Positions 2,978 to 34,889 of a stretch of DNA of 64,000 nucleotides are shown here, piece after piece. Under the pieces are notes generated by a model. That model had not been told where the DNA came from. It was given only the letters and a program-made list of their open reading frames with translations, and searched no databases. A program made the position numbers and the translations under genes. The stretch is from Escherichia phage vB_EcoS_MM-1. Each line of letters opens with the position of its first letter. Position 1 is the stretch's first letter. Where the stretch lies: sequence record PV577657. One strand, written 5' to 3'.

Positions 2978-3430
2978 ATGTCATTCACACAGCAAGAACT
3001 TTTAGATAACTTCCGATATGAAGATGGTAAGTTATTTAGAACTACAGGAAGAAATGCAGGGAAAGAATGTTGTGTTTCTACAGGTAACGGATATTATCGT
3101 ATATCTCTAGGGAATAGGACTATGCTTCGGCATAGAGCAATATTTTTAATGCATCATGGATACTTACCTGATTTAGTAGATCATGTGAATACTATAAAAG
3201 GTGATGATCGTATTGAAAATCTTAGAGAGCAGACAGTATCCGGTAATCTAAGAAATATCAAATATAAGAAAGGAATGCATGTTTACCCTTCTGGTAGTAA
3301 GAACTGGCAAGTGGTATTTACTATTAACCGTAAACGTATAGTTAAAGGAACATATGACAACTATGAGGTTGCATGTTCTATGGCCAAGATGTTTAGAGGT
3401 CAATTATACGGTAGGGAATCAATCCAGTAA
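2978..3430 (+). CDS. HNH homing endonuclease
   Basis: RBS GGAGGTGAGG then ATG at 2978; motif HRAIFLMHHGYLPDLVDHVN...DDRIENL typical of phage HNH endonucleases. Confidence 0.8.
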   Translation: MSFTQQELLDNFRYEDGKLFRTTGRNAGKECCVSTGNGYYRISLGNRTMLRHRAIFLMHHGYLPDLVDHVNTIKGDDRIENLREQTVSGNLRNIKYKKGMHVYPSGSKNWQVVFTINRKRIVKGTYDNYEVACSMAKMFRGQLYGRESIQ

Positions 3431-3438
3431 AATTTCAT

Positions 3439-3468
3439 TTGCAAGGGAGTATTATTTTATAGTATAAT
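3439..3468 (+). promoter_or_regulatory. sigma70-type early promoter (T5-like)
   Basis: TTGCAA, 18-nt spacer, TATAAT (3463-3468), then ATTCCCATAAATGAGAGA, resembling the PN25 downstream box. Confidence 0.5.
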
Positions 3469-3498
3469 ATTCCCATAAATGAGAGACATTAGTAAAAA

Positions 3499-3528
3499 TT
3501 GATTTTGCTAATTTTTCTTGTTTACAAT
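3499..3528 (+). promoter_or_regulatory. possible second promoter
   Basis: TTGATT, 18-nt spacer, TACAAT. Confidence 0.35.
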
Positions 3529-3534
3529 CCGCGA

Positions 3535-3953
3535 TACGGAACAGTTAGGCTGCCCCATTAAGGGTTGTTTTAACTGTTACGTGTTAGTTTTTAAACAAAT
3601 AGTTAATAGAATACTTAGCGATCTACATCCCGTAGGAACCCTGGTAAGGCCTCGAAGCAACCTAGTGTGAGGTGGTTGTGAAGTGAGACGGGAAGAGTGA
3701 AAAACTCTGAGAAGTGATGACGTAAGGTATACTGCATCTAGTATGAGCTAGTACATGAAGCATTAGGTGAGCAAATCTGGCTTAGCGGCCATCCTCAAGG
3801 ATTTGTGCGGTATAGTGAAGCGGCAGTGTAGCGTGAAAGGGGAAGTTGCCACCCCCCTTCAGTATTTGCGATTAATTTGTTGAGAAATTGACAGTAACAG
3901 TTGTTCTATTCTTTCTGAATAGTCCTAAAGAAAACTTATTTCATTTCCAACAC
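3535..3953 (+). ncRNA. candidate structured untranslated leader or ncRNA (no ORF of 60 aa or more on either strand)
   Basis: About 420 nt between promoters and the RBS at 3954; purine/G-rich composition unlike the AT-rich flanks; hairpins GAGTgaaaaACTC, ATCCTcaAGGAT and GGGG-N11-CCCC. Confidence 0.3.
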
Positions 3954-3965
3954 AGGAGTATTGTT

Positions 3966-6752
3966 GTGTTCTCAATCCTACAAGGTCATGCAGGATTTCA
4001 TCGCGATTTAGCCACAGGCATTTGGCGAGAAGTTAAAGCAGAAGACTATCTTTTTGCTAAAAGATTTTCCTCAAAGCATCCTGAAGGTAAACCAGCTTCA
4101 ATGCCCTTCAAGTTTGATGTAATTGATGAAGTTGATCCTCAAACCCTAGTAGAAATGCTCCCTCTTATGAGACGTTTAACGTCTGACCCTCATATCGTTG
4201 CGGTACGAGGTCGATGTCTTGCACCCAAAAATAATGTGCGGCGTAAGAAGGGCAACTTTAATGTATCTAACCCAAGTCATATAATTGCAATGGACGTGGA
4301 TGGTATTGTAGATACAGGTGGTTGTAACAAGTTTGATCTTGTTGGCATGGCTCGACATATTATTAGAATGTTAAATAGTATTAGTGAGGATATGTTTCCT
4401 CTTGATGCAGGGTTTATTGCTCATGCATCGTCTTCGGCTGGGCTAAAACCAGGTATCCGAATGCACTTAATACTAGAATCTAATGTTAAAGTAACTCAGG
4501 GTCAAATCAAATTCTTATTTACATCTATCAATGAAAGTAGTAGACAAAAGTATGGCTTTGATATTGCCGACTTAGCTTATTACTCTTCCGTACAGCTCCA
4601 TTATTTTGCAGATCCGTTATTTACCGATGGTATAGTAGATCCGTTTAAGGCGGAGGGTGCTTCACGTCTGGTATTTGTTAAGGGTTCTAAAGTAAACTTA
4701 CCTAATAATCTGGTTGACTATGAAACAACTAGAGGTGAGTTTAAGGAGGAGTTTTACTCTTTACTCGATCAAATTAAAGGTAAAAAAGCTGCCTCCGATA
4801 AAGTAGAGGAAACTATCAGCGAACTAGAAGAAGCTGAGGATGGAGTGTATCTACGTATCATACCTAAACTCTATCACAGAGCTTTAGAGGATGGTGTTGA
4901 TTTTGCATGGCTAGAAAAAGAAATCCGTCCAGCCTTATCAGAATATATTGCAACCAAAGATAATAGTCGTAATATTCAAGATTACTTTAATAACGGTCGT
5001 AAACAGGCTCTGAAAGCATTTGTTAATAATTCTAAACGCGATATACCTGATGTTTTAAAAGGTATTCCACTTAAAAAGCTAGAAACTAACTCTCTAGAAA
5101 CTGATAACTTCTTGAAATTAAATACTGTACCACCAGAAGGTTATATGACTTTTGTAAAAGCAAGTCTAGGTACAGGTAAAACTACGGCGGTTGTGCGTTG
5201 GTTAGATTCAGGAGTTATTAAAGGTAATTTCTTAGCAATTACCAATACTCGAGCACTGGTATCTTCAAATGCTAAGAAATTTAGTGCAGGACAATATGAT
5301 AAGTCTGTAGATATGCTTAATTTTAAGCGTGGTGCTATTGACCGTATGTCCACAACTATTCACTCTTTGCATAAGTTCAAGAGTTTTATTGGTCAAATCG
5401 ATGCAATCTTTATAGATGAATGTGATGCTGTAATGAATGACCTATTATTCGCCCCGGTTGTTAAACAACGTCGTGAATGTATTCAGGTTCTTCGGGATAT
5501 TCTTGCAACTGCAAAAATCATTATATTATCTGATGGGGATATTAGTGCAGAAACAATTGAAGCATATGGTTCTTTAATTGAGTTTGATAAACCGGTTGCA
5601 TTTTATAATCATCACCGAAAAATGCTATCAAAAGCTCATGCCTACGAGTTCCCTGATGAATCCAGTATTTGGGTTGCACTTCAGACTTCTCTAGAGATGG
5701 GTGAGAAATCTATCCTAGTATCTGACTGTGGGCCGGATGAACTGAATGAGAAGGGCATGGCGTTGCGTCGTAATACGGGTGCGTTAGTTAAGGAAATCCA
5801 CTCAAACTCTACGTCTGATGTAGATATTCGACGTATTCTGGATTACACAACTAATGAGTTAATTGACCAACAAATTGATTGCTTATTATGTAGTCCATCC
5901 GTAACGAGTGGTGTTGACTTCAACTATTTTGATAACGTATTCGTTATTACTAGAACCAGTAACCAAGCGCCAAACATGCGTTTTCAAGCAATCAGGCGCG
6001 ACCGTGGTGCTCAGAACATTTATTATTTTATTGATAAATCTACGAGTGGATTCTCCGCAGGCTCTGAACAATATAATATTGATGAAGGTTGGCTGGAGTT
6101 AGCACAGCAATTATACGCACGTCGTAGGGAGCTGGAGTCTAGGAACTATACTAGTACTTTACGTTATTACTTGCTTGATCAGGGTGCAACTATTGATATT
6201 TTCAGTGAAAGCTGGGGAACTATCGAAGGTGCAGGTAAAGAGTATACAGAAGAGCGAATCAAAGCCATTTTGTATTCAACTCCTGATTATTGTGCTCCAC
6301 GCCATGCAGATGCATATGAAGCTAAACTACTTCTTGTTCGCTATTATCATCTTGAGTCTATTAAAGATGTAACAGTTGAGCATGTTGAGCAATACATTAA
6401 GGATAAACCGAATGATCGAGCGGCATTCTTCCATAAAATGCACGAGATGTTCTGGGAAGATATTAAGAAGTGTTCAAATGTCACTATCAAACCATTCATA
6501 GAAGCTCTGAAAGGCAAGAAGAAAGATTTCTTCCTTAAAACAGGTCAGAGTGCTAACCCAAAATATGCCAGAATGTATCTTGGTATGATGGGTATTGGCA
6601 AGGATATGAACACGGAGAATATTGTAGACTGGTACAGAACTTATTGTAAAATCGAGTGTATGCCAATTCCTTTCAAATTCATGACAGAGGAAGAGAAGGC
6701 TATGGCAGAAGAAGTACTGTCCGAACTTGGAGCAACTAATGAAGACGCATAA
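3966..6752 (+). CDS. large replication protein: AEP-primase-like N-domain fused to a P-loop helicase domain (possibly the replication-origin-binding type protein of T5-like phages)
   Basis: In-frame GTG at 3966 with AGGAG at 3954-3958 (track start TTG 3888 is less likely); DxD motif IIAMDVDG, GIRMHLIL, Walker A ASLGTGKTT, Walker B IFIDECD. Confidence 0.6.
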   Translation: MFSILQGHAGFHRDLATGIWREVKAEDYLFAKRFSSKHPEGKPASMPFKFDVIDEVDPQTLVEMLPLMRRLTSDPHIVAVRGRCLAPKNNVRRKKGNFNVSNPSHIIAMDVDGIVDTGGCNKFDLVGMARHIIRMLNSISEDMFPLDAGFIAHASSSAGLKPGIRMHLILESNVKVTQGQIKFLFTSINESSRQKYGFDIADLAYYSSVQLHYFADPLFTDGIVDPFKAEGASRLVFVKGSKVNLPNNLVDYETTRGEFKEEFYSLLDQIKGKKAASDKVEETISELEEAEDGVYLRIIPKLYHRALEDGVDFAWLEKEIRPALSEYIATKDNSRNIQDYFNNGRKQALKAFVNNSKRDIPDVLKGIPLKKLETNSLETDNFLKLNTVPPEGYMTFVKASLGTGKTTAVVRWLDSGVIKGNFLAITNTRALVSSNAKKFSAGQYDKSVDMLNFKRGAIDRMSTTIHSLHKFKSFIGQIDAIFIDECDAVMNDLLFAPVVKQRRECIQVLRDILATAKIIILSDGDISAETIEAYGSLIEFDKPVAFYNHHRKMLSKAHAYEFPDESSIWVALQTSLEMGEKSILVSDCGPDELNEKGMALRRNTGALVKEIHSNSTSDVDIRRILDYTTNELIDQQIDCLLCSPSVTSGVDFNYFDNVFVITRTSNQAPNMRFQAIRRDRGAQNIYYFIDKSTSGFSAGSEQYNIDEGWLELAQQLYARRRELESRNYTSTLRYYLLDQGATIDIFSESWGTIEGAGKEYTEERIKAILYSTPDYCAPRHADAYEAKLLLVRYYHLESIKDVTVEHVEQYIKDKPNDRAAFFHKMHEMFWEDIKKCSNVTIKPFIEALKGKKKDFFLKTGQSANPKYARMYLGMMGIGKDMNTENIVDWYRTYCKIECMPIPFKFMTEEEKAMAEEVLSELGATNEDA

Positions 6753-26735: not shown

Positions 26736-26772
26736 AAAAACCCCGGTGGATTTTGTCCACCGGGGTTTCTTT
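26736..26772. terminator. bidirectional rho-independent terminator between convergent early and late blocks
   Basis: CCCCGGTGGA-tttt-GTCCACCGGGG flanked by A-run upstream and T-run downstream. Confidence 0.8.
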
Positions 26773-26788
26773 GTACTATGTATATGTA

Positions 26789-29557
26789 CTATGAGTTATC
26801 TGGCTTAATAAGCTCGCTAACAAGTTTCTTCAGTTCGGTTAATTCTTGCTCAAGTTTGTTAACTTTATCAGCTTGATAACGAAATGCGCAAGCTAGGTCT
26901 GCCATAATGACGTTGTTATCAAGCGCTAATGTGTCATCTGCTTTGTCAACAACAATTTGACGATCTACATATTCTTCACCTTCATCGTTAACACCTACAA
27001 CATCTGCAAAAATATCACCTCCCGGGATTAATTTTACGTATTCGGGATCTATTTTTAGCAGGTCTTGGGCTATTAAGCCGAATCGTTGGATATCGCTACC
27101 GTTGTATTTAAACATCGTTGGCAACCACTGCATAACTCGGTCATAGCTTTCTTTTCCATCTGTATAAATTATATCGTGCTTTAAATCTCTGTCAGAGTTA
27201 GCGGCCTTTTGAAAAATGAAATTTCCACTTGATGACCATGTGGTTATATCGTTTGAGGCTGGCTGAAACTGGAAGTTACAGAAAAAATTACCATCACCAC
27301 GAAGTCTTAGCGAGCAAAAAGGCCAAGCATTATTTCCCTGTGGGATAAGTCCCCAAGTTGCGCGAATTGGATAACCACCAGTGGATTGTGTACCCCATGA
27401 AAGGCCAGGTGCCCATCCACCATCATTGTTAGCAATAGTCTCACCCCAAACAAGAGCATTACCCCAATAGTTAGGAGCATCCCATCCCATTTGTTGGGTT
27501 TTGCCAGTGTATTGAGCAGAATGCGTTCTGCCGTCAGGGTAAAACTTGTGCATATAGGACCGTATCCCTGCTTGATACAACTCTATTCCAAAAGATTCAA
27601 CGTGTGTGTCGCCTCTTCTGATTAAACCAGCGATAGCGTAATCGTCATACCAGTTGTAACGACTTACACCAGTCCATGTGTTTATTGGTGGATTCATGAT
27701 TGAAAATAGTTGTGACGCATTGCGTTCATTCCCATCTGCATAAATACCAGCCCCAGGAGCTAAGGAAATACTTTTCGCTCCTGAAAAAGTACCATTTTCA
27801 TTAAACTGATAATACTGTGATGCCCCATTATGAAATACGCCTATTGTATGCTTTCCTACGCCTACTTGAGTCTCAAAATAAGACTGAGAAGAACCAATAT
27901 CTTCGCCTTGTGTATTCTTTAATTTTGAATGATATATACCTGCATTTGCAGTAGTTGCATTTTCCGTTTCGTTTTCAACATTAAGACTTAGGAACTTTGG
28001 TGCATGTTTCTCACCAAGCCCTATATTATTTCTGATACCATTCGCATCCTTAGCACCTGTACCACCAAATTGAATACCTAGTGGTAGCCATTGATTGGTT
28101 GTAGCATCATAAACGCCCCAATGATCCCCACCATCTGGAATGGTTAGATACTTGTTTTTATTTGGAGAATATAAAATTGTTTCACCAGAATTCTGAAACA
28201 GCCTATCAACTCCTAAATTATATCTAGCACCTTCAGGAGTATCTGCTCCTGTACCACCAGCCGCAGTTGATAATGGAAGAGTTTCCCATGATATTCCATC
28301 ACCTTTTGTATCTCTCTGAAGTACAATAAGACCATCATCTCTAATAACAAATCTATATAATCTATTATGTGAATATAGAAAAGTATGAACCCCATCTTGT
28401 ACAAGTGAGTCTATAAGGAGTGTCTGACGAGAAGCATTGATATTTGACAGATCTGAGAGATTATTTTCTTTTAGTAACGATTTACTAATGATACCTTCAG
28501 CTTTTCCAGCAGCTACTTCCGCACGCCCAGCGTCTGTAGATGCACTTTGTGCGCTACCAGCAGCATTGCTAGCTTGTTGTCCTGCTTCGGTAGCGCTATT
28601 ACTTGCTTGTGCAGCCGAGGCTGCAGCAGCATCTTTTAGCACTGTAGTTTCCGTTACCGCACTATCCTTAATACCTTGTGTGTCTGTTTTTAATTGCTCA
28701 ACATCAGATTTTAAAGCCGTTGTTTCACCTATAGTGCTGTCTTTAATTAGTTGAGTATCTGTTTTTAATTGCTCAACATCTGATTTTAAGCCTTGAATAG
28801 TAGTTACTGATTGGTTAGCTGAGGCTGCGGAATGGGCTGCATTAGTCTCACTAGTTTTTGCATTGGTTTCACTAGTTTTTGCATTGGCTTCACTAGCTTT
28901 TGCATTAGTTTCCGAGGTTTTTGCAGCGGATGCTGATGCGGCGGCTTGTGCAGAGAATATTTCTGCCCCATCTCTATAGCCTTTAGAATCCGAAGCAGAA
29001 GCAGCAGCATTAGTTTCACTAGCCTTTGCCTTATCTTCACTAGTCTTTGCTGCAATAGCAGAAGCAGCAGCATTAGTTTCACTAGCCTTTGCCTTATCTT
29101 CGCTAGCCTTTGCATTAGTCTCACTAGTTTTTGCGTTAGTCTCACTAGTTTTTGCATTAGTTTCACTAGCCTTTGCCTTATCTTCGCTAGTTTTAGCATT
29201 AGTCTCAGATATTTTAGCTGCAGCTGCTGATTCCTCCGATTTAGTAGCTGATGCAGCAGATTGAGTAGCAGATGTAGCGGACTGAGTGGCAGAGGCTTCA
29301 GAAGCTCCAGCAGAAATAGCAGCTTCCTGTTCAGAGTTCTTAGCATTAAGCTCCGAAGTTTTAGCCGCTATCTCAGAATCTTTTGCAGCTGCAGCAGACT
29401 TAGCTGCAGCCTCAATAGAAGATACTAACTCACTTGCAGTAATAGAGCTAATAGAATTACCTAGAGTTACTGTATATCTAGGAAACTTACTAGCAGTAGC
29501 TTTAGTATCATCAATATTTAATATTTGTTGTACAATAATTTTAGTAGTTACTGCCAT
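26789..29557 (-). CDS. L-shaped tail fibre (pb1-like) with C-terminal intramolecular-chaperone domain
   Basis: N-terminal Ala/Ser-rich heptad repeats (TSETNAK); C-terminal SDRDLKHDIIYTDG...FGLIAQDLLKIDPEYV resembles the S74 auto-processing chaperone domain. Confidence 0.75.
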   Translation of the reverse strand: MAVTTKIIVQQILNIDDTKATASKFPRYTVTLGNSISSITASELVSSIEAAAKSAAAAKDSEIAAKTSELNAKNSEQEAAISAGASEASATQSATSATQSAASATKSEESAAAAKISETNAKTSEDKAKASETNAKTSETNAKTSETNAKASEDKAKASETNAAASAIAAKTSEDKAKASETNAAASASDSKGYRDGAEIFSAQAAASASAAKTSETNAKASEANAKTSETNAKTSETNAAHSAASANQSVTTIQGLKSDVEQLKTDTQLIKDSTIGETTALKSDVEQLKTDTQGIKDSAVTETTVLKDAAAASAAQASNSATEAGQQASNAAGSAQSASTDAGRAEVAAGKAEGIISKSLLKENNLSDLSNINASRQTLLIDSLVQDGVHTFLYSHNRLYRFVIRDDGLIVLQRDTKGDGISWETLPLSTAAGGTGADTPEGARYNLGVDRLFQNSGETILYSPNKNKYLTIPDGGDHWGVYDATTNQWLPLGIQFGGTGAKDANGIRNNIGLGEKHAPKFLSLNVENETENATTANAGIYHSKLKNTQGEDIGSSQSYFETQVGVGKHTIGVFHNGASQYYQFNENGTFSGAKSISLAPGAGIYADGNERNASQLFSIMNPPINTWTGVSRYNWYDDYAIAGLIRRGDTHVESFGIELYQAGIRSYMHKFYPDGRTHSAQYTGKTQQMGWDAPNYWGNALVWGETIANNDGGWAPGLSWGTQSTGGYPIRATWGLIPQGNNAWPFCSLRLRGDGNFFCNFQFQPASNDITTWSSSGNFIFQKAANSDRDLKHDIIYTDGKESYDRVMQWLPTMFKYNGSDIQRFGLIAQDLLKIDPEYVKLIPGGDIFADVVGVNDEGEEYVDRQIVVDKADDTLALDNNVIMADLACAFRYQADKVNKLEQELTELKKLVSELIKPDNS
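28810..29260 (-). repeat. in-frame 21-nt tandem repeats encoding the TSETNAK heptads of the tail fibre
   Basis: Repeated GCATTAGTTTCACTAGCCTTT-type units on the plus strand. Confidence 0.7.
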
Positions 29558-29979
29558 TATTTAGTTACCCCATCACTGATAAATACTTTACCCTCCATTA
29601 TACGAAAGGAGCTAATTGCAGATCCTATAACATCTCTAGTCATAATTATATCATAGTATCCTGCGAATCGCTGACGAGGGTTATATTTATCTCTATCTTT
29701 AGATGCTCTAGCCCCTATATTTTCCACAGATTCTACTGGCAAACTTATAGCTACAGCCCCTTGAGCAGCATCAATAATATTAGTAGTAAAGGATGCTAAT
29801 ATCTCCGCATTCTCATCTAGGCTATTTTTTATAGTACCCCTTAGAGAATACCCGGTTAAGTTAACGGGGGTATTTGTAGGTGGATAAGTACTATCATCAA
29901 CATCTAAGAACCGCATCATTAAACCATATGGTACTTTCTCATCTATTACTAAATCTATAACTCTATTTTCAGTACTCAT
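29557..29979 (-). CDS. tail/collar protein (T5 p140-like by size and position)
   Basis: 140 aa, between pb4-like and fibre genes. Confidence 0.5.
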
Positions 29980-29982
29980 TAT

Positions 29983-32055
29983 TTACCTTATATGGATGTA
30001 CCCGTTTTGCAGGTCTATCTTCATTCTGTAATAGGCTTCCGGATTATCAGATAATGCAGCGTTTCTATCATAAATAACGTTAACACCGATCTGAGATAAG
30101 AAGGCATTATTTGCTACAATCTTACTGGCGGTTACCGTACCATTAACTATCATATCGCCATGCAGTACCATTGCTGGGTTAACCCAACCGGAACCATTCC
30201 ATTGACGAGTAAATGCAGATTGCGGAGCATTACTATTAAACTCTGTCAATACATCATATCTAACTGGAGGACTACCAAAGTTATTCTGGAAGAAGGCATT
30301 AGCCTGCCCATCATCCCAACCACCAAGACCAGGAATACCTAAGGAATACATTCCAGGACCACGTTGTCCATCATGTCCTATAGTACCTTCAGTACCACTC
30401 CACTGAACTACATCAGACCAGCTAGTACCTGCAAGTAGCTTATTAGTAACTGGGTCAAGTGTACCCGTAGTCGCATAGATATTTTGTGTCATATCTGTAC
30501 GATTAGGTGGAGTTTTTGACCAACCAGGAGGCGGATAATCTTGTTCTAGTGGCTTTGCTGGAAGTGCAGTTGATATCTTATAAACAAATACTGTTTGCTT
30601 GCCCTGTATACCTGTTTGGATATCTACATCGCCATTTGGTGTTCCAATTACTACTCCACTAGAAATACGTAGTACATCACCATCATAACGAATCCACTGT
30701 GTGGCATTACCAATGTCTAACTTAGCTTTGGCAGAGGTATTATCCATGCCCATCCAAATACCGGAGTTATTATCCCCCCAAGATTTACCTTGAGTGTAAA
30801 TTGCTGGATTATCCTTACCGGATAAGTTAGTCATGATAAAATTCGCAGCATTAATATCTCTAGTAATTACTTTACCATCAACGTTAACAACACGGTTTAT
30901 AGGATCAAAAGAAATAGGTGCTTTTCCCTCTTCATCTAGCAGACCAATGTTAATAGCACCAGTAGCTGCATCGATTAAGAATGTCTGTCTCCAGATTTCT
31001 CCATCTTTCATGCTGCCCTTAATAAAGGCATAGTTAACATCAATACCAGTCTCATTGACAAAGCTGTTATCTAGAGGAGTATCTTCATTCAATATAAATG
31101 TTACAGGAGCTGATTCTGTTATATCTTGTTTATTTGGTCCCCAGGCAATTGATGATACCTTAAAGGTATGTTCAACTTTCCATGGGAATGATATAATTGT
31201 TGCAGCTCTGGCAGCACCAACGTTTATCTTTTGAGCTTTAGCCCAGCCAGTCTTAGCGTATTCTTCAGAATTTATATATGTAACCAAGAACTCACGAACA
31301 TTAGCACCACCACCGCGTTCCCAATCCCACTCAATTCTAACATCATATCGTTCTTTACCATCAGCAATTCGTGCAGCTTTAAAAACAATATTGATAGGTG
31401 CAGTAGGAGGAACAAAATTATAAGCTACTGTTAAAATATTAGGGAATTCATAGTACCCAGAAGAATCAACTGTAACACCATCAGGCATAGTTACTTGACC
31501 AGATATTCTGATCTTATAATCTCCGATAGGAACTCCACCAAATTTAATAGTAGAACCTAAAGCCCCAATGTAATACTTAGTCCAAGGACTGTCTTCAGTA
31601 GCTGTACTTTTTAACTCAATAGTACAGTAGCTTGCTTCACCAGTTGTTTCTACGACAACTATCGGTGCACCTACCCCAACATCCACAGGTTCTGATTCAG
31701 ATCTTGCTGCAACAATTATTGGCTTCTCTTTTGTCCTAAAGTTAGTCTCATTAGAGAGATTGATACCAATCTTAGCCTCTAGCAGTTCAGAATCAATAAT
31801 AGAGTCGTAGAAAGCCCCTTGAATCTCGTAAGAGGTTGAAGGGGTCAGGTTATTAATCATTATGAAGAAAGTATCTATACCAGTATAATCACGTCTATCT
31901 ATACTTTCTCCTGTCTTTAACCAAAAAGATCTACCAATAACGTCATAGTCAGTATATATAGAGTGCTGGACATATGCCATTGTATATCCAGTCATTATAC
32001 TATTTAAAACCATTTTGGCTGGTGCATTATTCGAAATCATTAAATGGATGCCCAC
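29983..32055 (-). CDS. baseplate/tail-tip protein (pb4-like)
   Basis: 690 aa, follows the baseplate hub as in T5. Confidence 0.6.
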   Translation of the reverse strand: MGIHLMISNNAPAKMVLNSIMTGYTMAYVQHSIYTDYDVIGRSFWLKTGESIDRRDYTGIDTFFIMINNLTPSTSYEIQGAFYDSIIDSELLEAKIGINLSNETNFRTKEKPIIVAARSESEPVDVGVGAPIVVVETTGEASYCTIELKSTATEDSPWTKYYIGALGSTIKFGGVPIGDYKIRISGQVTMPDGVTVDSSGYYEFPNILTVAYNFVPPTAPINIVFKAARIADGKERYDVRIEWDWERGGGANVREFLVTYINSEEYAKTGWAKAQKINVGAARAATIISFPWKVEHTFKVSSIAWGPNKQDITESAPVTFILNEDTPLDNSFVNETGIDVNYAFIKGSMKDGEIWRQTFLIDAATGAINIGLLDEEGKAPISFDPINRVVNVDGKVITRDINAANFIMTNLSGKDNPAIYTQGKSWGDNNSGIWMGMDNTSAKAKLDIGNATQWIRYDGDVLRISSGVVIGTPNGDVDIQTGIQGKQTVFVYKISTALPAKPLEQDYPPPGWSKTPPNRTDMTQNIYATTGTLDPVTNKLLAGTSWSDVVQWSGTEGTIGHDGQRGPGMYSLGIPGLGGWDDGQANAFFQNNFGSPPVRYDVLTEFNSNAPQSAFTRQWNGSGWVNPAMVLHGDMIVNGTVTASKIVANNAFLSQIGVNVIYDRNAALSDNPEAYYRMKIDLQNGYIHIR

Positions 32056-34889
32056 TCCACAGACTGTTCTCCATCATCTCCTTCTGCTCTAATACGAAAA
32101 TATAGTTTTCTATTTATTCCTAGAGCATCACTGTTATGAAGAGCAAAATCTGCCTTATTATACATTAATAAATAGTCATAAGTATACTGATTTTCAATAC
32201 GTACACTTCTTAGCATTCTATTCTGGGAGTCATAGATTTCCAGAGTATAGAATATACTTTCTATTATATCTTCTTCTGGTATCCTATCCCAAGCTAGTTT
32301 TACATCTGGGCCTACAAATTCAGTTACATCCCCAGAAGCCGTATTAGTTACCCTAAAATTAGATACTATACTTAGGTTTTTAGCAGAGTTAAGTTCTATA
32401 GATAAGGTTACTGGAGAACTTCTTCTACCATTTATATCCACAGCCCTTATTTCAAATATCGCTAAGCCTGCAGGCTCTCCAATTATCTCTTGGATCATGC
32501 GTTCATTGGGATTTGTTTCTAGTTGCTGCACAATATAAGGCTCAGCATGCCCGGAATGCACGATAGAGTAATAAACTACGTTATTAGTTAAGCTTGGAAG
32601 CCAAGATAACTCACCATTTTTTCCTATAGAACCAACTAAACCACCGGGTGTAGGAGTATATTTAAAATCTCTAGGAGGAAGAACGTTGTTACTAATATCT
32701 GGTATATCATTACCACTATTATCTACTTGATCAGAGTTGATAAATACATCTTCCCCATACTCCTGTAGAGTAACATTTATCTTTCCTTCTCTAGAGTTTT
32801 CGACTTCATCTACTAAAAAGTACTTCTTATCCCATCCGTAACGGTCGTATGTAAATGCAATAGCATCGTTAGGCTCAATACCAATGAATTGATATGGTAA
32901 AGAAAATGAGAGGGTTCTAGAATACCTAGATTTCTTAAGTTCTCTGTCTGCAAAACTTCTAGCAGTATAGTAGTTAGTTATATTTGCAAAAGATAATTGT
33001 AATTTTTTATCTAAATTTTTATCCTGCTCTTTATATTTAGAGTTATAAAAGGTAATAGAGTTAGTTTTCCAGCTAAGAGCTGGGTCTACTATGGATGCTT
33101 GAACTGAGTTGAATTTATTTCTACCAGTAGTATCTGATAGCTCTAAATCACCATAAGTATCCAGAAAATTAATCTCTAATGGAGTATTAGAATATTTTTC
33201 TACAGTAATCCTATATTGACCAGATAAGTTGTTAATAGCCCCACCGTAGGATTCTAGTAAACCTTGCACATTTTTAAATACTGATTCAGATGTATCTAGA
33301 ATAGTATTCATTTGTACTATTTGTCTATTTTCTGCTAATGGATCAGTCCACCCAACATATCTCCAGTATGGCTGCCAGGATACTTGGTAAGATTCATCTA
33401 TAATATCTAAGATAGCAGCTTCTTGTACCAATTGTTGTAGGGGGAACTGATCAATAGCAATGTTTGCACCATACCTATCTGAAGTTAAGTAGTCAAGTGT
33501 TTGCCAAATACCATTTAAACTAGTACTATTAGCAGTTACTCTACCATCAGGATGATAGATTTTTATCTTCTTACCCTGAATCTCAGCACTAACTTCTGGA
33601 ATCTCAGTTCTATTTTCATTAATAGTAAAGCGTACTACCGCGTATGCAGTATCTAATAGTTTATATCTAGCATCCCAGTACTCAGGCCCATTACCGTTCA
33701 TATTTTGGAGATAGAACCCACGTTCCTTCGCTATATTTACTAATACTTCAGAAGCCGTTTGATCAGCTTTTCCATGATAAGTCCAAATCCTTATATCACC
33801 ATTACCATCATTATATTTATATTCCTGACCGTGCACAGAAGGACTACTAGAAGATATTCCTGATGCTATTCTTTGCATGGTGTCTCCTGCTACTTTTTTA
33901 ACACCGAAACAGGTTCTAGCAGAGCTATCATTAGAGTCCATACAAATCATAGGGTTATCCCCAAAGGAAAAGTCAAGAAAACCGTCTATCTCTCCTTCAG
34001 CAAAAGCGTATACTACGTAAACTATATTAGGATTGTGTAATTCCGTATCCGCAAAAATAGGTATTCCCGGTATTTTCTGTACACCATAAACTACTGGTAT
34101 ATACTTAGCAGCAAGGTTAAAATCTATATCTACTTCTTTAGTAACAGTCTCATAATACTTTTTAAGACTATAACTTCTAGATAGTCCAAATAGCTTTTTC
34201 TTAGACTTTAGCTTGTATCTTTCTTCCTGTACCTGATACTTTGCTAGAATAGAGATACTTTTATTGGCATGAAAGAACCCATAATCTTCCTGGTACTCAA
34301 GTCTTTTAGCCCCGTTAGATGGAACTAATTGTCCTGCTACAACCTCAAGCCCTCTATGAGAAGCATCATCAGTAAACCTACCGTTAACCCTATCAAAATC
34401 ATAGAATTGGTTAGAACAATTCCAAGTAATTGTAGAGGTTCCAACCCCAGAAGTACTAATGTTGTCCTTAATACCTCCACCAGTAATTCTCCCTCTAAAG
34501 TATAATAAAGGGCCATTTGTGTCTGGGTCTACAGGTAAAATAGAACCATCCTCTGTAATAATTGCTTGATGAATTGATACTAGTCTATCTAAAAAGGACA
34601 CACCATTCTGCACTAATTTCAGTACTTCATCCTGCGCTGTACCTGTAATAGTAAAGGATAGGCTGCCAATAGATAAATCTCTATTTTGTTTATGTGTGCT
34701 AATAGACTTAACTTTACCGGCCTGGTACAAAATACCATTATATAGTACATCTCTAAAATAGTCAGTTAAGTAAATAAAAGCAGTACTAGTACCAGTAGAG
34801 CCGGGTAATTCTAGAGAAATTAGACTAGCAGTTTTTATTCTGCTATTATTTTTTAAGTAGTTTCTAGCACTATCTAATATTTTTTTCAT
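32040..34889 (-). CDS. baseplate hub / tail-tip protein (pb3-like)
   Basis: 949 aa, same as T5 pb3; downstream of distal tail protein. Confidence 0.7.
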   Translation of the reverse strand: MKKILDSARNYLKNNSRIKTASLISLELPGSTGTSTAFIYLTDYFRDVLYNGILYQAGKVKSISTHKQNRDLSIGSLSFTITGTAQDEVLKLVQNGVSFLDRLVSIHQAIITEDGSILPVDPDTNGPLLYFRGRITGGGIKDNISTSGVGTSTITWNCSNQFYDFDRVNGRFTDDASHRGLEVVAGQLVPSNGAKRLEYQEDYGFFHANKSISILAKYQVQEERYKLKSKKKLFGLSRSYSLKKYYETVTKEVDIDFNLAAKYIPVVYGVQKIPGIPIFADTELHNPNIVYVVYAFAEGEIDGFLDFSFGDNPMICMDSNDSSARTCFGVKKVAGDTMQRIASGISSSSPSVHGQEYKYNDGNGDIRIWTYHGKADQTASEVLVNIAKERGFYLQNMNGNGPEYWDARYKLLDTAYAVVRFTINENRTEIPEVSAEIQGKKIKIYHPDGRVTANSTSLNGIWQTLDYLTSDRYGANIAIDQFPLQQLVQEAAILDIIDESYQVSWQPYWRYVGWTDPLAENRQIVQMNTILDTSESVFKNVQGLLESYGGAINNLSGQYRITVEKYSNTPLEINFLDTYGDLELSDTTGRNKFNSVQASIVDPALSWKTNSITFYNSKYKEQDKNLDKKLQLSFANITNYYTARSFADRELKKSRYSRTLSFSLPYQFIGIEPNDAIAFTYDRYGWDKKYFLVDEVENSREGKINVTLQEYGEDVFINSDQVDNSGNDIPDISNNVLPPRDFKYTPTPGGLVGSIGKNGELSWLPSLTNNVVYYSIVHSGHAEPYIVQQLETNPNERMIQEIIGEPAGLAIFEIRAVDINGRRSSPVTLSIELNSAKNLSIVSNFRVTNTASGDVTEFVGPDVKLAWDRIPEEDIIESIFYTLEIYDSQNRMLRSVRIENQYTYDYLLMYNKADFALHNSDALGINRKLYFRIRAEGDDGEQSVEWASI

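What the first reader, a model, noticed from the sequence alone, without database searches (positions are those of the whole stretch)
26789..29557. Tail fibre with a long in-frame heptad repeat array and an intramolecular-chaperone C-terminus
Residues about 100-250 are near-perfect TSETNAK/ASEDKAK heptads encoded by 21-nt DNA repeats, a substrate for slippage and recombination that could vary fibre length. The C-terminus resembles the self-cleaving chaperone domain of pb1/endosialidase-type fibres. At 922 aa it is shorter than T5 pb1, hinting at a different receptor-binding region.
Basis: partly seen in the sequence, partly recalled or inferred. Interest (0 to 1): 0.35.

Follow-up and report, generated by a model that had tools for sequence, protein, structure and literature searches.

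The report
T5-type lateral tail fibre gene
This is the ordinary side tail-fibre gene of a T5-like coliphage: a repeat-built coiled-coil stalk whose length changes by whole repeat units between close relatives, a swapped-in host-binding tip, and a self-removing folding domain at the end.

Summary
Window 26789..29557 (-) is a 922-aa ORF, 100% identical to the annotated "tail fiber protein" of Escherichia phage vB_EcoS_MM-2 (Tequintavirus). It lies directly after the LtfC/p132 collar gene.

- Residues 51-253 are 29 heptads in unbroken register (Ala at position 1, Ser at position 4). They are encoded by 21-nt repeats (z=10 against codon shuffles). About 14 of them are near-perfect AK[TA]SE[TD][NK] units.
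- The C-terminus is a genuine peptidase S74 intramolecular chaperone. Pfam PF13884 scores above its cut-off, Ser788 is invariant and Lys793 is conserved. The predicted fold matches endosialidase, T5 pb1, GA-1 gp12 and MyRF chaperone structures.
- Only residues 1-227 resemble T5 pb1. The distal part is a different module, shared at 74-88% identity with Seuratvirus fibres and in part with T1-like Hanrivervirus fibres.
- Relatives differ by whole repeat units (7, 14, 28, 49 aa; 11, 25, 36 aa).

Everything fits known T5-like lateral-fibre biology, so interest is low. The receptor is unknown.

The parts
26789..29557 (-). ltf gene: lateral (L-shaped) tail fibre protein, 922 aa, 98.1 kDa precursor
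   Evidence: ORF. It is 100% identical to the PV577658.1 'tail fiber protein'. PHROG tail-fibre families match with E down to 7e-244.
29423..29557 (-). Residues 1-45: N-terminal anchor that should insert into the LtfC collar ring
   Evidence: About 80% identical to DT57C LtfA residues 1-100 (8HQZ; E 1.7e-34 overall). 52% identical to T5 pb1 over residues 1-227. In DT57C the trimerising helix starts at T40 (PMC10713586).
28799..29407 (-). Residues 51-253: 29 heptads in one register (position 1 Ala 24/29, position 4 Ser 27/29). Predicted trimeric alpha-helical coiled-coil stalk.
   Evidence: No proline occurs in residues 45-355. The coiled coil is inferred from the LtfA structure and from the match to the T7 gp17 coil.
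29009..29218 (-). Residues 114-183: main array of near-perfect AK[TA]SE[TD][NK] heptads. Contains exact DNA repeats of 45 nt (offset 63), 37 nt (offset 84) and 32 nt (offset 147).
   Evidence: The Ser codon is AGY in nine heptads of residues 121-183 (the degenerate heptad 163-169 is TCT) and three of residues 219-239, but TCN in the remaining Ser heptads. This marks a younger amplified unit.
28841..28924 (-). Residues 212-239: second array of four near-perfect heptads. Site of the +7/-7 aa variants.
   Evidence: VEc33 has one extra heptad; P0027 and P0039 have one fewer.
28622..28798 (-). Residues 254-312: two 25-residue repeats (LKSDVEQLKTDTQxIKDS...ETTA) with an 11-residue sub-period. Site of the +11/+22/+25/+36 aa variants.
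   Evidence: Protein identity at offset 25 is 0.65. A 23-nt exact repeat lies at offset 75. Variants are shown.
28487..28621 (-). Residues 313-357: Ala/Ser/Gln-rich end of the stalk. Recombination boundary with other T5-like fibre alleles, whose similarity ends at residue 354-370.
   Evidence: The profile matches the T7 gp17 coiled-coil region (7BOZ residues 162-268, E 8e-9).
27998..28420 (-). Residues 380-520: two ~68-aa modules, each a small beta unit followed by a GGTGA...AR.N(L/I)G motif
   Evidence: AlphaFold secondary structure. The motif matches the SU10 tail fibre 7Z47. There is a weak pyocin L1/L2 lectin similarity (E 0.004).
27197..27997 (-). Residues 521-787: beta-rich distal tip, the presumed receptor-binding domain. 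It becomes the C-terminus of the mature fibre.
   Evidence: All-beta in the model. No solved relative was found by sequence. It is found in 171 phage records of several families.
26792..27196 (-). Residues 788-922: peptidase S74 intramolecular chaperone (135 aa, 15.4 kDa). Predicted autocleavage at Asn787|Ser788, with catalytic Ser788 and Lys793.
   Evidence: The cleavage position is taken by analogy with pb1 Thr1263|Ser1264 (PMC4690869).
26736..26770 (.). Bidirectional intrinsic terminator between the convergent ltf gene and the DUF7369 gene
   Evidence: 15-bp stem with 8 G-C pairs and T runs on both strands. T5 has an annotated bidirectional terminator at the same position.
29557..29979 (-). 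ltfC/p132 collar gene (140 aa), the attachment partner. Its stop codon overlaps the ltf start codon.
   Evidence: Pfam PF23926 LtfC, E 2.7e-14. Annotated 'collar tail protein'.

Best explanation
The gene encodes the lateral (L-shaped) tail fibre of a T5-like siphophage and probably works as follows.

- Attachment: three chains trimerise. Their first ~45 residues thread into the dodecameric LtfC collar, which is encoded by the gene just upstream.
- Stalk: residues ~46-356 form a proline-free three-stranded alpha-helical coiled coil of roughly 46 nm. It consists of 29 Ala/Ser-core heptads, then two 25-residue repeats, then an Ala/Gln-rich segment.
- Distal part: residues ~380-787 form beta-structured nodes and a tip. 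The tip reversibly binds a surface glycan, most likely an O-antigen or other LPS sugar. This speeds adsorption before the separate pb5-type protein engages the terminal receptor.
- Maturation: residues 788-922 are an S74 intramolecular chaperone. It drives trimer folding of the tip and then cuts itself off at Asn787|Ser788 through the Ser788/Lys793 dyad, unmasking the binding tip. The mature protein is 82.7 kDa.
- Evolution of the stalk: the 21-nt (and 63/75/84/147-nt) direct DNA repeats are recombination or slippage substrates. Only whole-unit, register-preserving indels survive, so stalk length changes in ~1-nm steps between lineages. The same low-complexity coil acts as the junction where distal modules are exchanged with other siphophage families.

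Shown here: the sequence features, the homologies, the S74 fold, and the unit-wise indels. Inferred: trimeric coil geometry, autocleavage, glycan binding, and the repeat-mediated mechanism of the indels.
For: - Identity and annotation.
- Synteny with the T5 ltf locus (D13-D14-D15-dut ... ltf-collar-pb4-pb3).
- N-terminal homology: pb1 (52% over residues 1-227) and the solved DT57C LtfA (8HQZ, E 1.7e-34). The LtfA helix from T40 forms a three-helix coil bound by LtfC (PMC10713586).
- Heptad statistics.
- S74 domain: Pfam PF13884 above its cut-off; Ser788 invariant and Lys793 conserved; profile hits to the chaperone regions of 8HQZ and 6F45; Foldseek hits to 3GW6, 7DC3, 4UW8 and 3GUD at probability 0.96-1.00. 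The secondary-structure order (two helices, long beta-hairpin, long C-terminal helix) matches the description of the pb1 chaperone.
- pb1 precedent: cleavage at Thr1263|Ser1264, and only the processed form competes for the receptor (PMC4690869).
- Unit-wise indels. Near-identical allele pairs differ only by 7, 36 or 49 aa. Exact repeats of 32-45 nt lie at offsets of 3, 4 and 7 heptads.
- Register constraint: in DT57C, a single-residue deletion (A198) in this coil abolished adsorption to the O-antigen host (PMC4728585). This fits selection for register-preserving changes only.
- Mosaic breakpoints lie in the coil, at residue ~198 and at residues 354-370.
- T5-like lateral fibres bind O-antigens and are dispensable on K-12 (PMC8594841).
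Against: - No experiment on this protein exists. Cleavage, trimer state and ligand are all inferred.
- The monomer AlphaFold model of residues 348-922 is mediocre (pLDDT 70, pTM 0.28), and the tip gave no convincing fold match.
- The phage was isolated on K-12 W3110, which lacks O-antigen, so the fibre's ligand cannot be guessed from the host.
- Hosts of phages carrying this tip are mixed: K-12, O157:H7 and Salmonella.
- One of the indel cases may be an assembly artefact.
- The modal array length is the same in 33 of 91 homologue clusters, so the array is not wildly unstable.
Confidence: 0.88

Rival explanations
1. The heptad array is a hypermutable contingency locus. Slippage is frequent enough that a single lysate holds a mix of fibre lengths, giving the phage standing variation in reach through different O-antigen or capsule thicknesses. 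This rival is not exclusive of the main explanation.
For: - Exact 20-45-nt direct repeats lie in frame.
- VEc33 and P0005 are 100% identical apart from one heptad.
- A contig 99.8-99.9% identical to the window over 8.6 kb carries a precise 147-nt deletion between the 32-nt repeats.
Against: - The same array length (landmark at residue 193) is kept in 33 clusters that have diverged to 72-96% identity.
- The units are 68-85% identical rather than perfect.
- 21-nt units with mismatches slip far less than short simple-sequence repeats (established knowledge).
- No within-sample data could be obtained.
Confidence: 0.12
2. The apparent copy-number differences are short-read assembly errors in a repetitive gene, and the array is in fact constant within each lineage.
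For: The -49 aa variant comes from a Logan (k=31) contig. Its junction is exactly the 32-nt exact repeat, which is the pattern expected from a de Bruijn graph collapse.
Against: - Expansions (+7 aa in VEc33, +36 aa in OSYSP) cannot arise by collapse.
- The same -49 aa length occurs in an unrelated allele, P0032.
- The variants occur in finished isolate genomes from different laboratories.
- The differences between subfamilies are 14, 28, 49 and 70 aa.
Confidence: 0.08
3. The distal part is an enzyme (a depolymerase or esterase tailspike) rather than a purely binding fibre tip. S74 chaperones were first found on endosialidases.
For: - S74 domains are common on enzymatic tailspikes (established knowledge; 3GW6 hit).
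- PDB depolymerases 7VYV and 7LZJ appear among the sequence hits.
Against: - The depolymerase hits cover only the heptad coil, residues 95-155.
- No hydrolase, lyase or beta-helix family was found in Pfam, even at E<=10 on the fragments.
- The tip is only ~270 aa of beta structure.
- pb1 and LtfA, the nearest relatives, are binding fibres.
Confidence: 0.06

Closest known systems
T5 pb1 (Ltf), the L-shaped tail fibre; C-terminal structures 4UW7/4UW8
   Same: - Same locus and operon position.
- Homologous N-terminal anchor and AKTSETN-type heptad stalk (52% identity over residues 1-227).
- C-terminal S74 chaperone of almost the same size (135 vs 133 aa) with a Ser...Lys(+5) dyad.
- Fold match at probability 1.00.
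   Different: - 922 vs 1396 aa.
- No detectable sequence similarity beyond residue 227, including the receptor-binding 'bullet' domain. The polymannose specificity of pb1 therefore cannot be transferred.
- The chaperone itself is recognisable only by profile or fold, not by BLASTP.
DT57C LtfA (cryo-EM 8HQZ) with the LtfC collar
   Same: - The best solved relative. The N-terminus is ~80% identical over the first 100 aa.
- The coiled coil starts near residue 40.
- An LtfC homologue is encoded just upstream.
- The S74 end aligns: residues 751-910 vs 931-1073 by single-sequence phmmer, with the profile match starting at chain residue 957.
   Different: - DT57C fibres are branched (LtfA plus LtfB). 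Only one ltf gene lies between ltfC and the terminator here.
- The middle and tip regions are not alike.
Lateral fibres of Seuratvirus ('Aeromonas phage SD04', 827 aa) and Hanrivervirus (slyngel, atuna, G29-2; 731 aa)
   Same: - Residues 198-921 are 74-88% identical to the Seuratvirus-type fibres.
- nt 1491-2672 are 87-92% identical to the Hanrivervirus fibres.
- Same tip and same S74 domain.
   Different: Their N-terminal anchors differ (PF08400 phage_tail_N in the Seuratvirus type), matching a different virion attachment site.
Endosialidase K1F C-terminal intramolecular chaperone (3GW6), GA-1 gp12 (3GUD) and MyRF ICA (7DC3): the peptidase S74 family
   Same: Same fold and catalytic motif. 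The Foldseek hits have E 9e-6 to 6e-2 and TM 0.39-0.54 for a monomer model.
   Different: 14-19% sequence identity. The domain is attached to a different passenger domain.
T4-type fibritin gpwac: a segmented coiled coil evolving by segment gain and loss (Letarov et al. 2005, cited in PMC10713586)
   Same: A phage fibre stalk built of coiled-coil segments whose number varies between relatives. This comparison rests on my own knowledge plus the citation seen.
   Different: An unrelated protein, with a different attachment and a C-terminal foldon instead of an S74 chaperone.

Membership tests
T5-like lateral tail fibre (pb1/LtfA) | N-terminal anchor homologous to pb1/LtfA | tested here: met
   BLASTP against pb1 gives 52% identity over residues 1-227, E 3e-31. 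phmmer against 8HQZ LtfA gives E 1.7e-34. phrog_24369 (the pb1 family) matches with E 1e-48.
T5-like lateral tail fibre (pb1/LtfA) | Gene directly downstream of the LtfC/p132 collar gene in the tail-tip operon, ending at the bidirectional terminator next to dut | tested here: met
T5-like lateral tail fibre (pb1/LtfA) | Trimeric coiled-coil stalk starting near residue 40 | tested here: inconclusive
   29 in-register Ala/Ser heptads and no proline in residues 45-355, plus homology to the solved LtfA coil. Oligomeric state was not modelled because only monomer prediction was available.
T5-like lateral tail fibre (pb1/LtfA) | Binds an O-antigen or surface glycan and accelerates adsorption | not testable with these tools
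   Inferred from family biology only.
Peptidase S74 intramolecular chaperone | Match to Pfam PF13884 above the gathering score | tested here: met
   34-37 bits against a cut-off of 22, residues 788-842. All 33 aligned homologues match.
Peptidase S74 intramolecular chaperone | Catalytic Ser with Lys five residues downstream | tested here: met
   S788-D-R-D-L-K793. The Ser is invariant and the Lys is conserved in at least 90% of sequences. The pb1 equivalents are Ser1264/Lys1269.
Peptidase S74 intramolecular chaperone | Chaperone fold: helical hairpin, long beta-hairpin 'tentacle', C-terminal coiled-coil helix | tested here: met
   The model has pLDDT 83.7. The top 12 Foldseek hits are all S74 chaperones.
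Peptidase S74 intramolecular chaperone | Autoproteolytic release after trimer folding | not testable with these tools
   Needs virion proteomics or expression of wild type against S788A.
Monocot mannose-binding (bulb-type, MMBL) lectin | QxDxNxVxY sugar-binding motif and a Pfam B_lectin match | tested here: not met
   There is only weak similarity to pyocin L1/L2 (E 0.004-0.1). The motif reads RxDxLxVxQ. No B_lectin hit appears in any of the 33 homologues.
Repeat-based contingency (hypervariable) locus | Length variants among near-identical genomes | tested here: met
   Three allele pairs at 98.7-100% identity differ only by 7, 36 or 49 aa. One of them is possibly an assembly artefact.
Repeat-based contingency (hypervariable) locus | Length heterogeneity within one population at measurable frequency | not testable with these tools

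The most novel reading that the evidence does not exclude
The stalk repeats act as a fast 'length dial'. Repeat-mediated gain and loss of whole heptads (about 1 nm each) would occur often enough to create fibre-length variants inside phage populations. Selection would then tune the reach of the tip to the thickness of the host's O-antigen or capsule layer. The same coil would serve as the universal splice point for swapping tips among Demerecviridae, Drexlerviridae and Queuovirinae.
Probability: 0.12. Interest if true: 0.5.

Novelty: new member of a known kind. Interest (0 to 1): 0.2.

Why it matters
Practical value is modest.

- The analysis gives a domain map, a predicted cleavage site (Asn787|Ser788) and natural splice points (residue ~198 and residues 354-370) for one allele of the T5-like lateral fibre. 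This is useful to anyone studying host recognition in laboratory coliphages.
- In this fibre family the quickest evolutionary change is gain or loss of whole stalk repeats. I did not find this described in the searchable literature. It is a small addition to a well-understood system.
- It opens no long-standing question.

Tried and rejected
- Whole distal model (residues 348-922): pLDDT 70, pTM 0.28. Foldseek against the PDB gave only low-TM hits; 4UW8 ranked 2 (probability 0.94, TM 0.14-0.19) and the rest were propeller-like noise. This was not usable for assigning the tip fold.
- Direct BLASTP of the last 155 aa against the pb1 chaperone found nothing. Profile and fold methods were needed.
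- Lectin idea for residues 385-497: weak pyocin L1/L2 similarity, a non-canonical motif and no Pfam support. Rejected as a family assignment and kept as a note.
- Enzyme (depolymerase) idea: no catalytic family was detected.
- Receptor guess from hosts: hosts of phages sharing the tip are mixed (K-12, O157:H7, Salmonella), and the OSYSP paper gives no receptor data.
- The window's own assembly is not held for the genome search.
- The four extra 'places in record' reported by megablast are consistent with self-offsets of the repeats. The unit occurs only inside this gene within the window.
Full report
**What is there**

The window is part of Escherichia phage vB_EcoS_MM-2 (PV577658.1; Demerecviridae, Tequintavirus), isolated on E. 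coli K-12 W3110. The queried stretch is 100% identical to its annotated "tail fiber protein".

The ORF 26789..29557 (-) encodes 922 aa. Reading along the minus strand, the neighbouring genes are:
- pb3 (32040..34889),
- pb4 (29983..32055; Pfam PB4 domains),
- the 140-aa collar protein LtfC/p132 (29557..29979; PF23926),
- this gene,
- a strong bidirectional terminator (26736-26770), facing the convergent DUF7369/dUTPase/flap-endonuclease genes.

This is the T5 ltf locus gene for gene.

**The repeats**

- Tandem Repeats Finder reports 21-nt arrays at 28838-28925, 29007-29201 and 29243-29293. Higher-order 42/63/84-nt periods are also present.
- When the protein is printed in sevens, a single register runs without a stutter from residue 51 to 253. 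That is 29 heptads, with Ala at position 1 in 24 of 29 and Ser at position 4 in 27 of 29.
- DNA identity at offset 21 is 0.572, against 0.374 +/- 0.019 for codon shuffles (z=10.4).
- About 14 heptads are near-perfect AK[TA]SE[TD][NK] units (residues 114-162, 170-183, 212-239). The rest are degenerate Ala/Ser heptads.
- Nine heptads of residues 121-183 (the degenerate heptad 163-169 is TCT) and three of residues 219-239 spell their Ser as AGY, while the remaining Ser heptads use TCN. This marks a younger amplified unit.
- Exact direct repeats of 45, 37 and 32 nt lie at offsets of 63, 84 and 147 nt, that is 3, 4 and 7 heptads.
- Residues 254-312 are two 25-residue repeats with an 11-residue sub-period.
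- Residues 45-355 contain no proline.
- T5 pb1 itself carries the same AKTSETN-type heptads, so the array is a family trait.
- In the solved DT57C virion, the homologous LtfA N-terminus threads into the LtfC ring, and a helix starting at T40 forms a three-helix coiled coil (8HQZ; PMC10713586).
- The end of the stalk also matches the solved T7 gp17 coiled coil.

**The C-terminus**

- Pfam PF13884 (Peptidase_S74) matches residues 788-842 above its gathering score.
- The motif is S788-D-R-D-L-K793. The Ser is invariant and the Lys is conserved in at least 90% of 33 homologues that range down to 24% identity.
- A profile of the family also hits the chaperone parts of 8HQZ and of the S16 long-tail-fibre tip 6F45.
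- An AlphaFold model of residues 775-922 (pLDDT 83.7) has two short helices, a long beta-hairpin and a 37-residue terminal helix.
- Its twelve best Foldseek hits are all S74 intramolecular chaperones: K1F endosialidase 3GW6, MyRF 7DC3, T5 pb1 4UW8 and GA-1 gp12 3GUD, at probability 0.96-1.00.
- In pb1 the bond Thr1263|Ser1264 is cut with Lys1269 as base. Only the processed fibre competes for the receptor (PMC4690869).
- By analogy I predict cleavage at Asn787|Ser788, giving an 82.7-kDa mature chain and a 15.4-kDa chaperone. Cleavage itself is inferred.

**A different receptor-binding part, and a mosaic**

BLASTP similarity to pb1 stops at residue 227. Homologue searches show two overlapping modules:
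- Residues 1-354/370 are 72-84% identical to many T5-like fibres that continue with unrelated tips.
- Residues 198-921 are 74-88% identical to ~827-aa fibres of 59-60-kb Seuratvirus-type phages, which start with a different anchor (PF08400).
- nt 1491-2672 are 87-92% identical to fibres of T1-like Hanrivervirus phages.

The tip (residues 521-787) has relatives in 171 phage records from Demerecviridae, Drexlerviridae, Dhillonvirus and Queuovirinae. Both breakpoints lie in the coiled coil. Such allelic diversity of lateral fibres in these groups, and their role as O-antigen binders that are dispensable on K-12, are already described (PMC8594841; PMC4728585).

The tip has no solved relative by sequence. 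The monomer model of residues 348-922 was too weak for a fold assignment. The ligand is unknown.

**Does the repeat number vary?**

Yes, between relatives, and in whole units.
- A conserved landmark (GYRDxA, residue 193 here) sits at residue 193, 179, 165, 144 or 123 in different homologue clusters. These are steps of 14, 28, 49 and 70 aa.
- Alignments show clean indels of -49, -28, -14, +7 and -7 aa in the heptad arrays. In the 25/11-residue repeats they are +11, +22, +25 and +36 aa.
- Three pairs of near-identical alleles differ by nothing else in length:
  - VEc33 and P0005 are 100% identical apart from one heptad.
  - OSYSP and P0006 are 98.7% identical apart from 36 aa.
  - The window and P0004 are 99.5% identical apart from 49 aa.
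- The P0004 case comes from a Logan contig that is 99.8-99.9% identical to the window over 8.6 kb. Its junction is exactly the 32-nt repeat, so it could be a k=31 assembly collapse.
- The expansions in finished isolate genomes cannot be collapses.
- In DT57C, deleting a single residue (A198) in this coil abolished adsorption to the O-antigen host. This fits the idea that only register-preserving changes are tolerated.
- At 0.148 nm per residue the observed steps are 1 to 10 nm on a stalk of about 46 nm.
- The modal length is kept across 33 diverged clusters. I therefore read this as occasional repeat-mediated change, not hypermutation.

**Verdict**

The object is a normal, already annotated member of the T5-like lateral tail-fibre family with a tip allele different from T5. 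The only point I did not find described is that whole-unit stalk indels are the fastest changes between near-identical alleles. Interest is low.

Noticed in passing
window 28069-28402 (residues 385-497 of the fibre): There is weak but repeated sequence similarity to the N-terminal MMBL lectin domain of pyocins L1/L2 (phmmer E 0.004-0.1; profile E 0.002-0.009). The motif YRFVIRDDGLIVLQ stands in place of the lectin's QxDxNxVxY. Each ~40-aa beta unit is followed by a GGTGA...AR.NLG motif. In a homotrimer, three such units could form a three-fold beta-prism. This is speculative.
   Followed up: partly
L007 (Logan ERR11439706 contig, 18.4 kb), gene at 3001-5622: A phage 99.8-99.9% identical to the window over 8.6 kb carries a precise 147-nt in-frame deletion in ltf. 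Its junction lies in a 32-nt exact repeat. It is either a real recombination product or a k=31 assembly collapse.
   Followed up: partly
phage records MG065643, MG065649, MG065657, MG065680, MG065681 ('Campylobacter phage' E6, A143, C4, A113, A139; 49.9 kb) and MH230177 ('Aeromonas phage SD04', Seuratvirus): These records are labelled with non-enterobacterial hosts, yet they carry fibre tips that match this coliphage's tip closely (nt: Campylobacter records 87.3%, SD04 89.8%; tip protein: Campylobacter records 85.8%), and they have coliphage-like genome sizes. The host labels look doubtful.
   Followed up: no
window 29557-29979 (-) compared with T5 NC_005859 features T5.135/T5.136: The collar gene is one intact 140-aa LtfC ORF here. 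The T5 reference splits it into two small CDSs. The DT57C paper attributes that split to a frameshift error in the T5 record.
   Followed up: no
window 28437-28754, 28946-29230 and 29286-29564 (+), and 28804-29346 (-): Long ORFs lie antisense or out of frame inside the repeat region. They are low-complexity by-products of the Ala/Ser codon repeats and not likely genes.
   Followed up: no
window 26772-26793: A 7-nt tandem repeat (TGTACTA, 3.3 copies) spans the ltf stop codon, just next to the bidirectional terminator.
   Followed up: no
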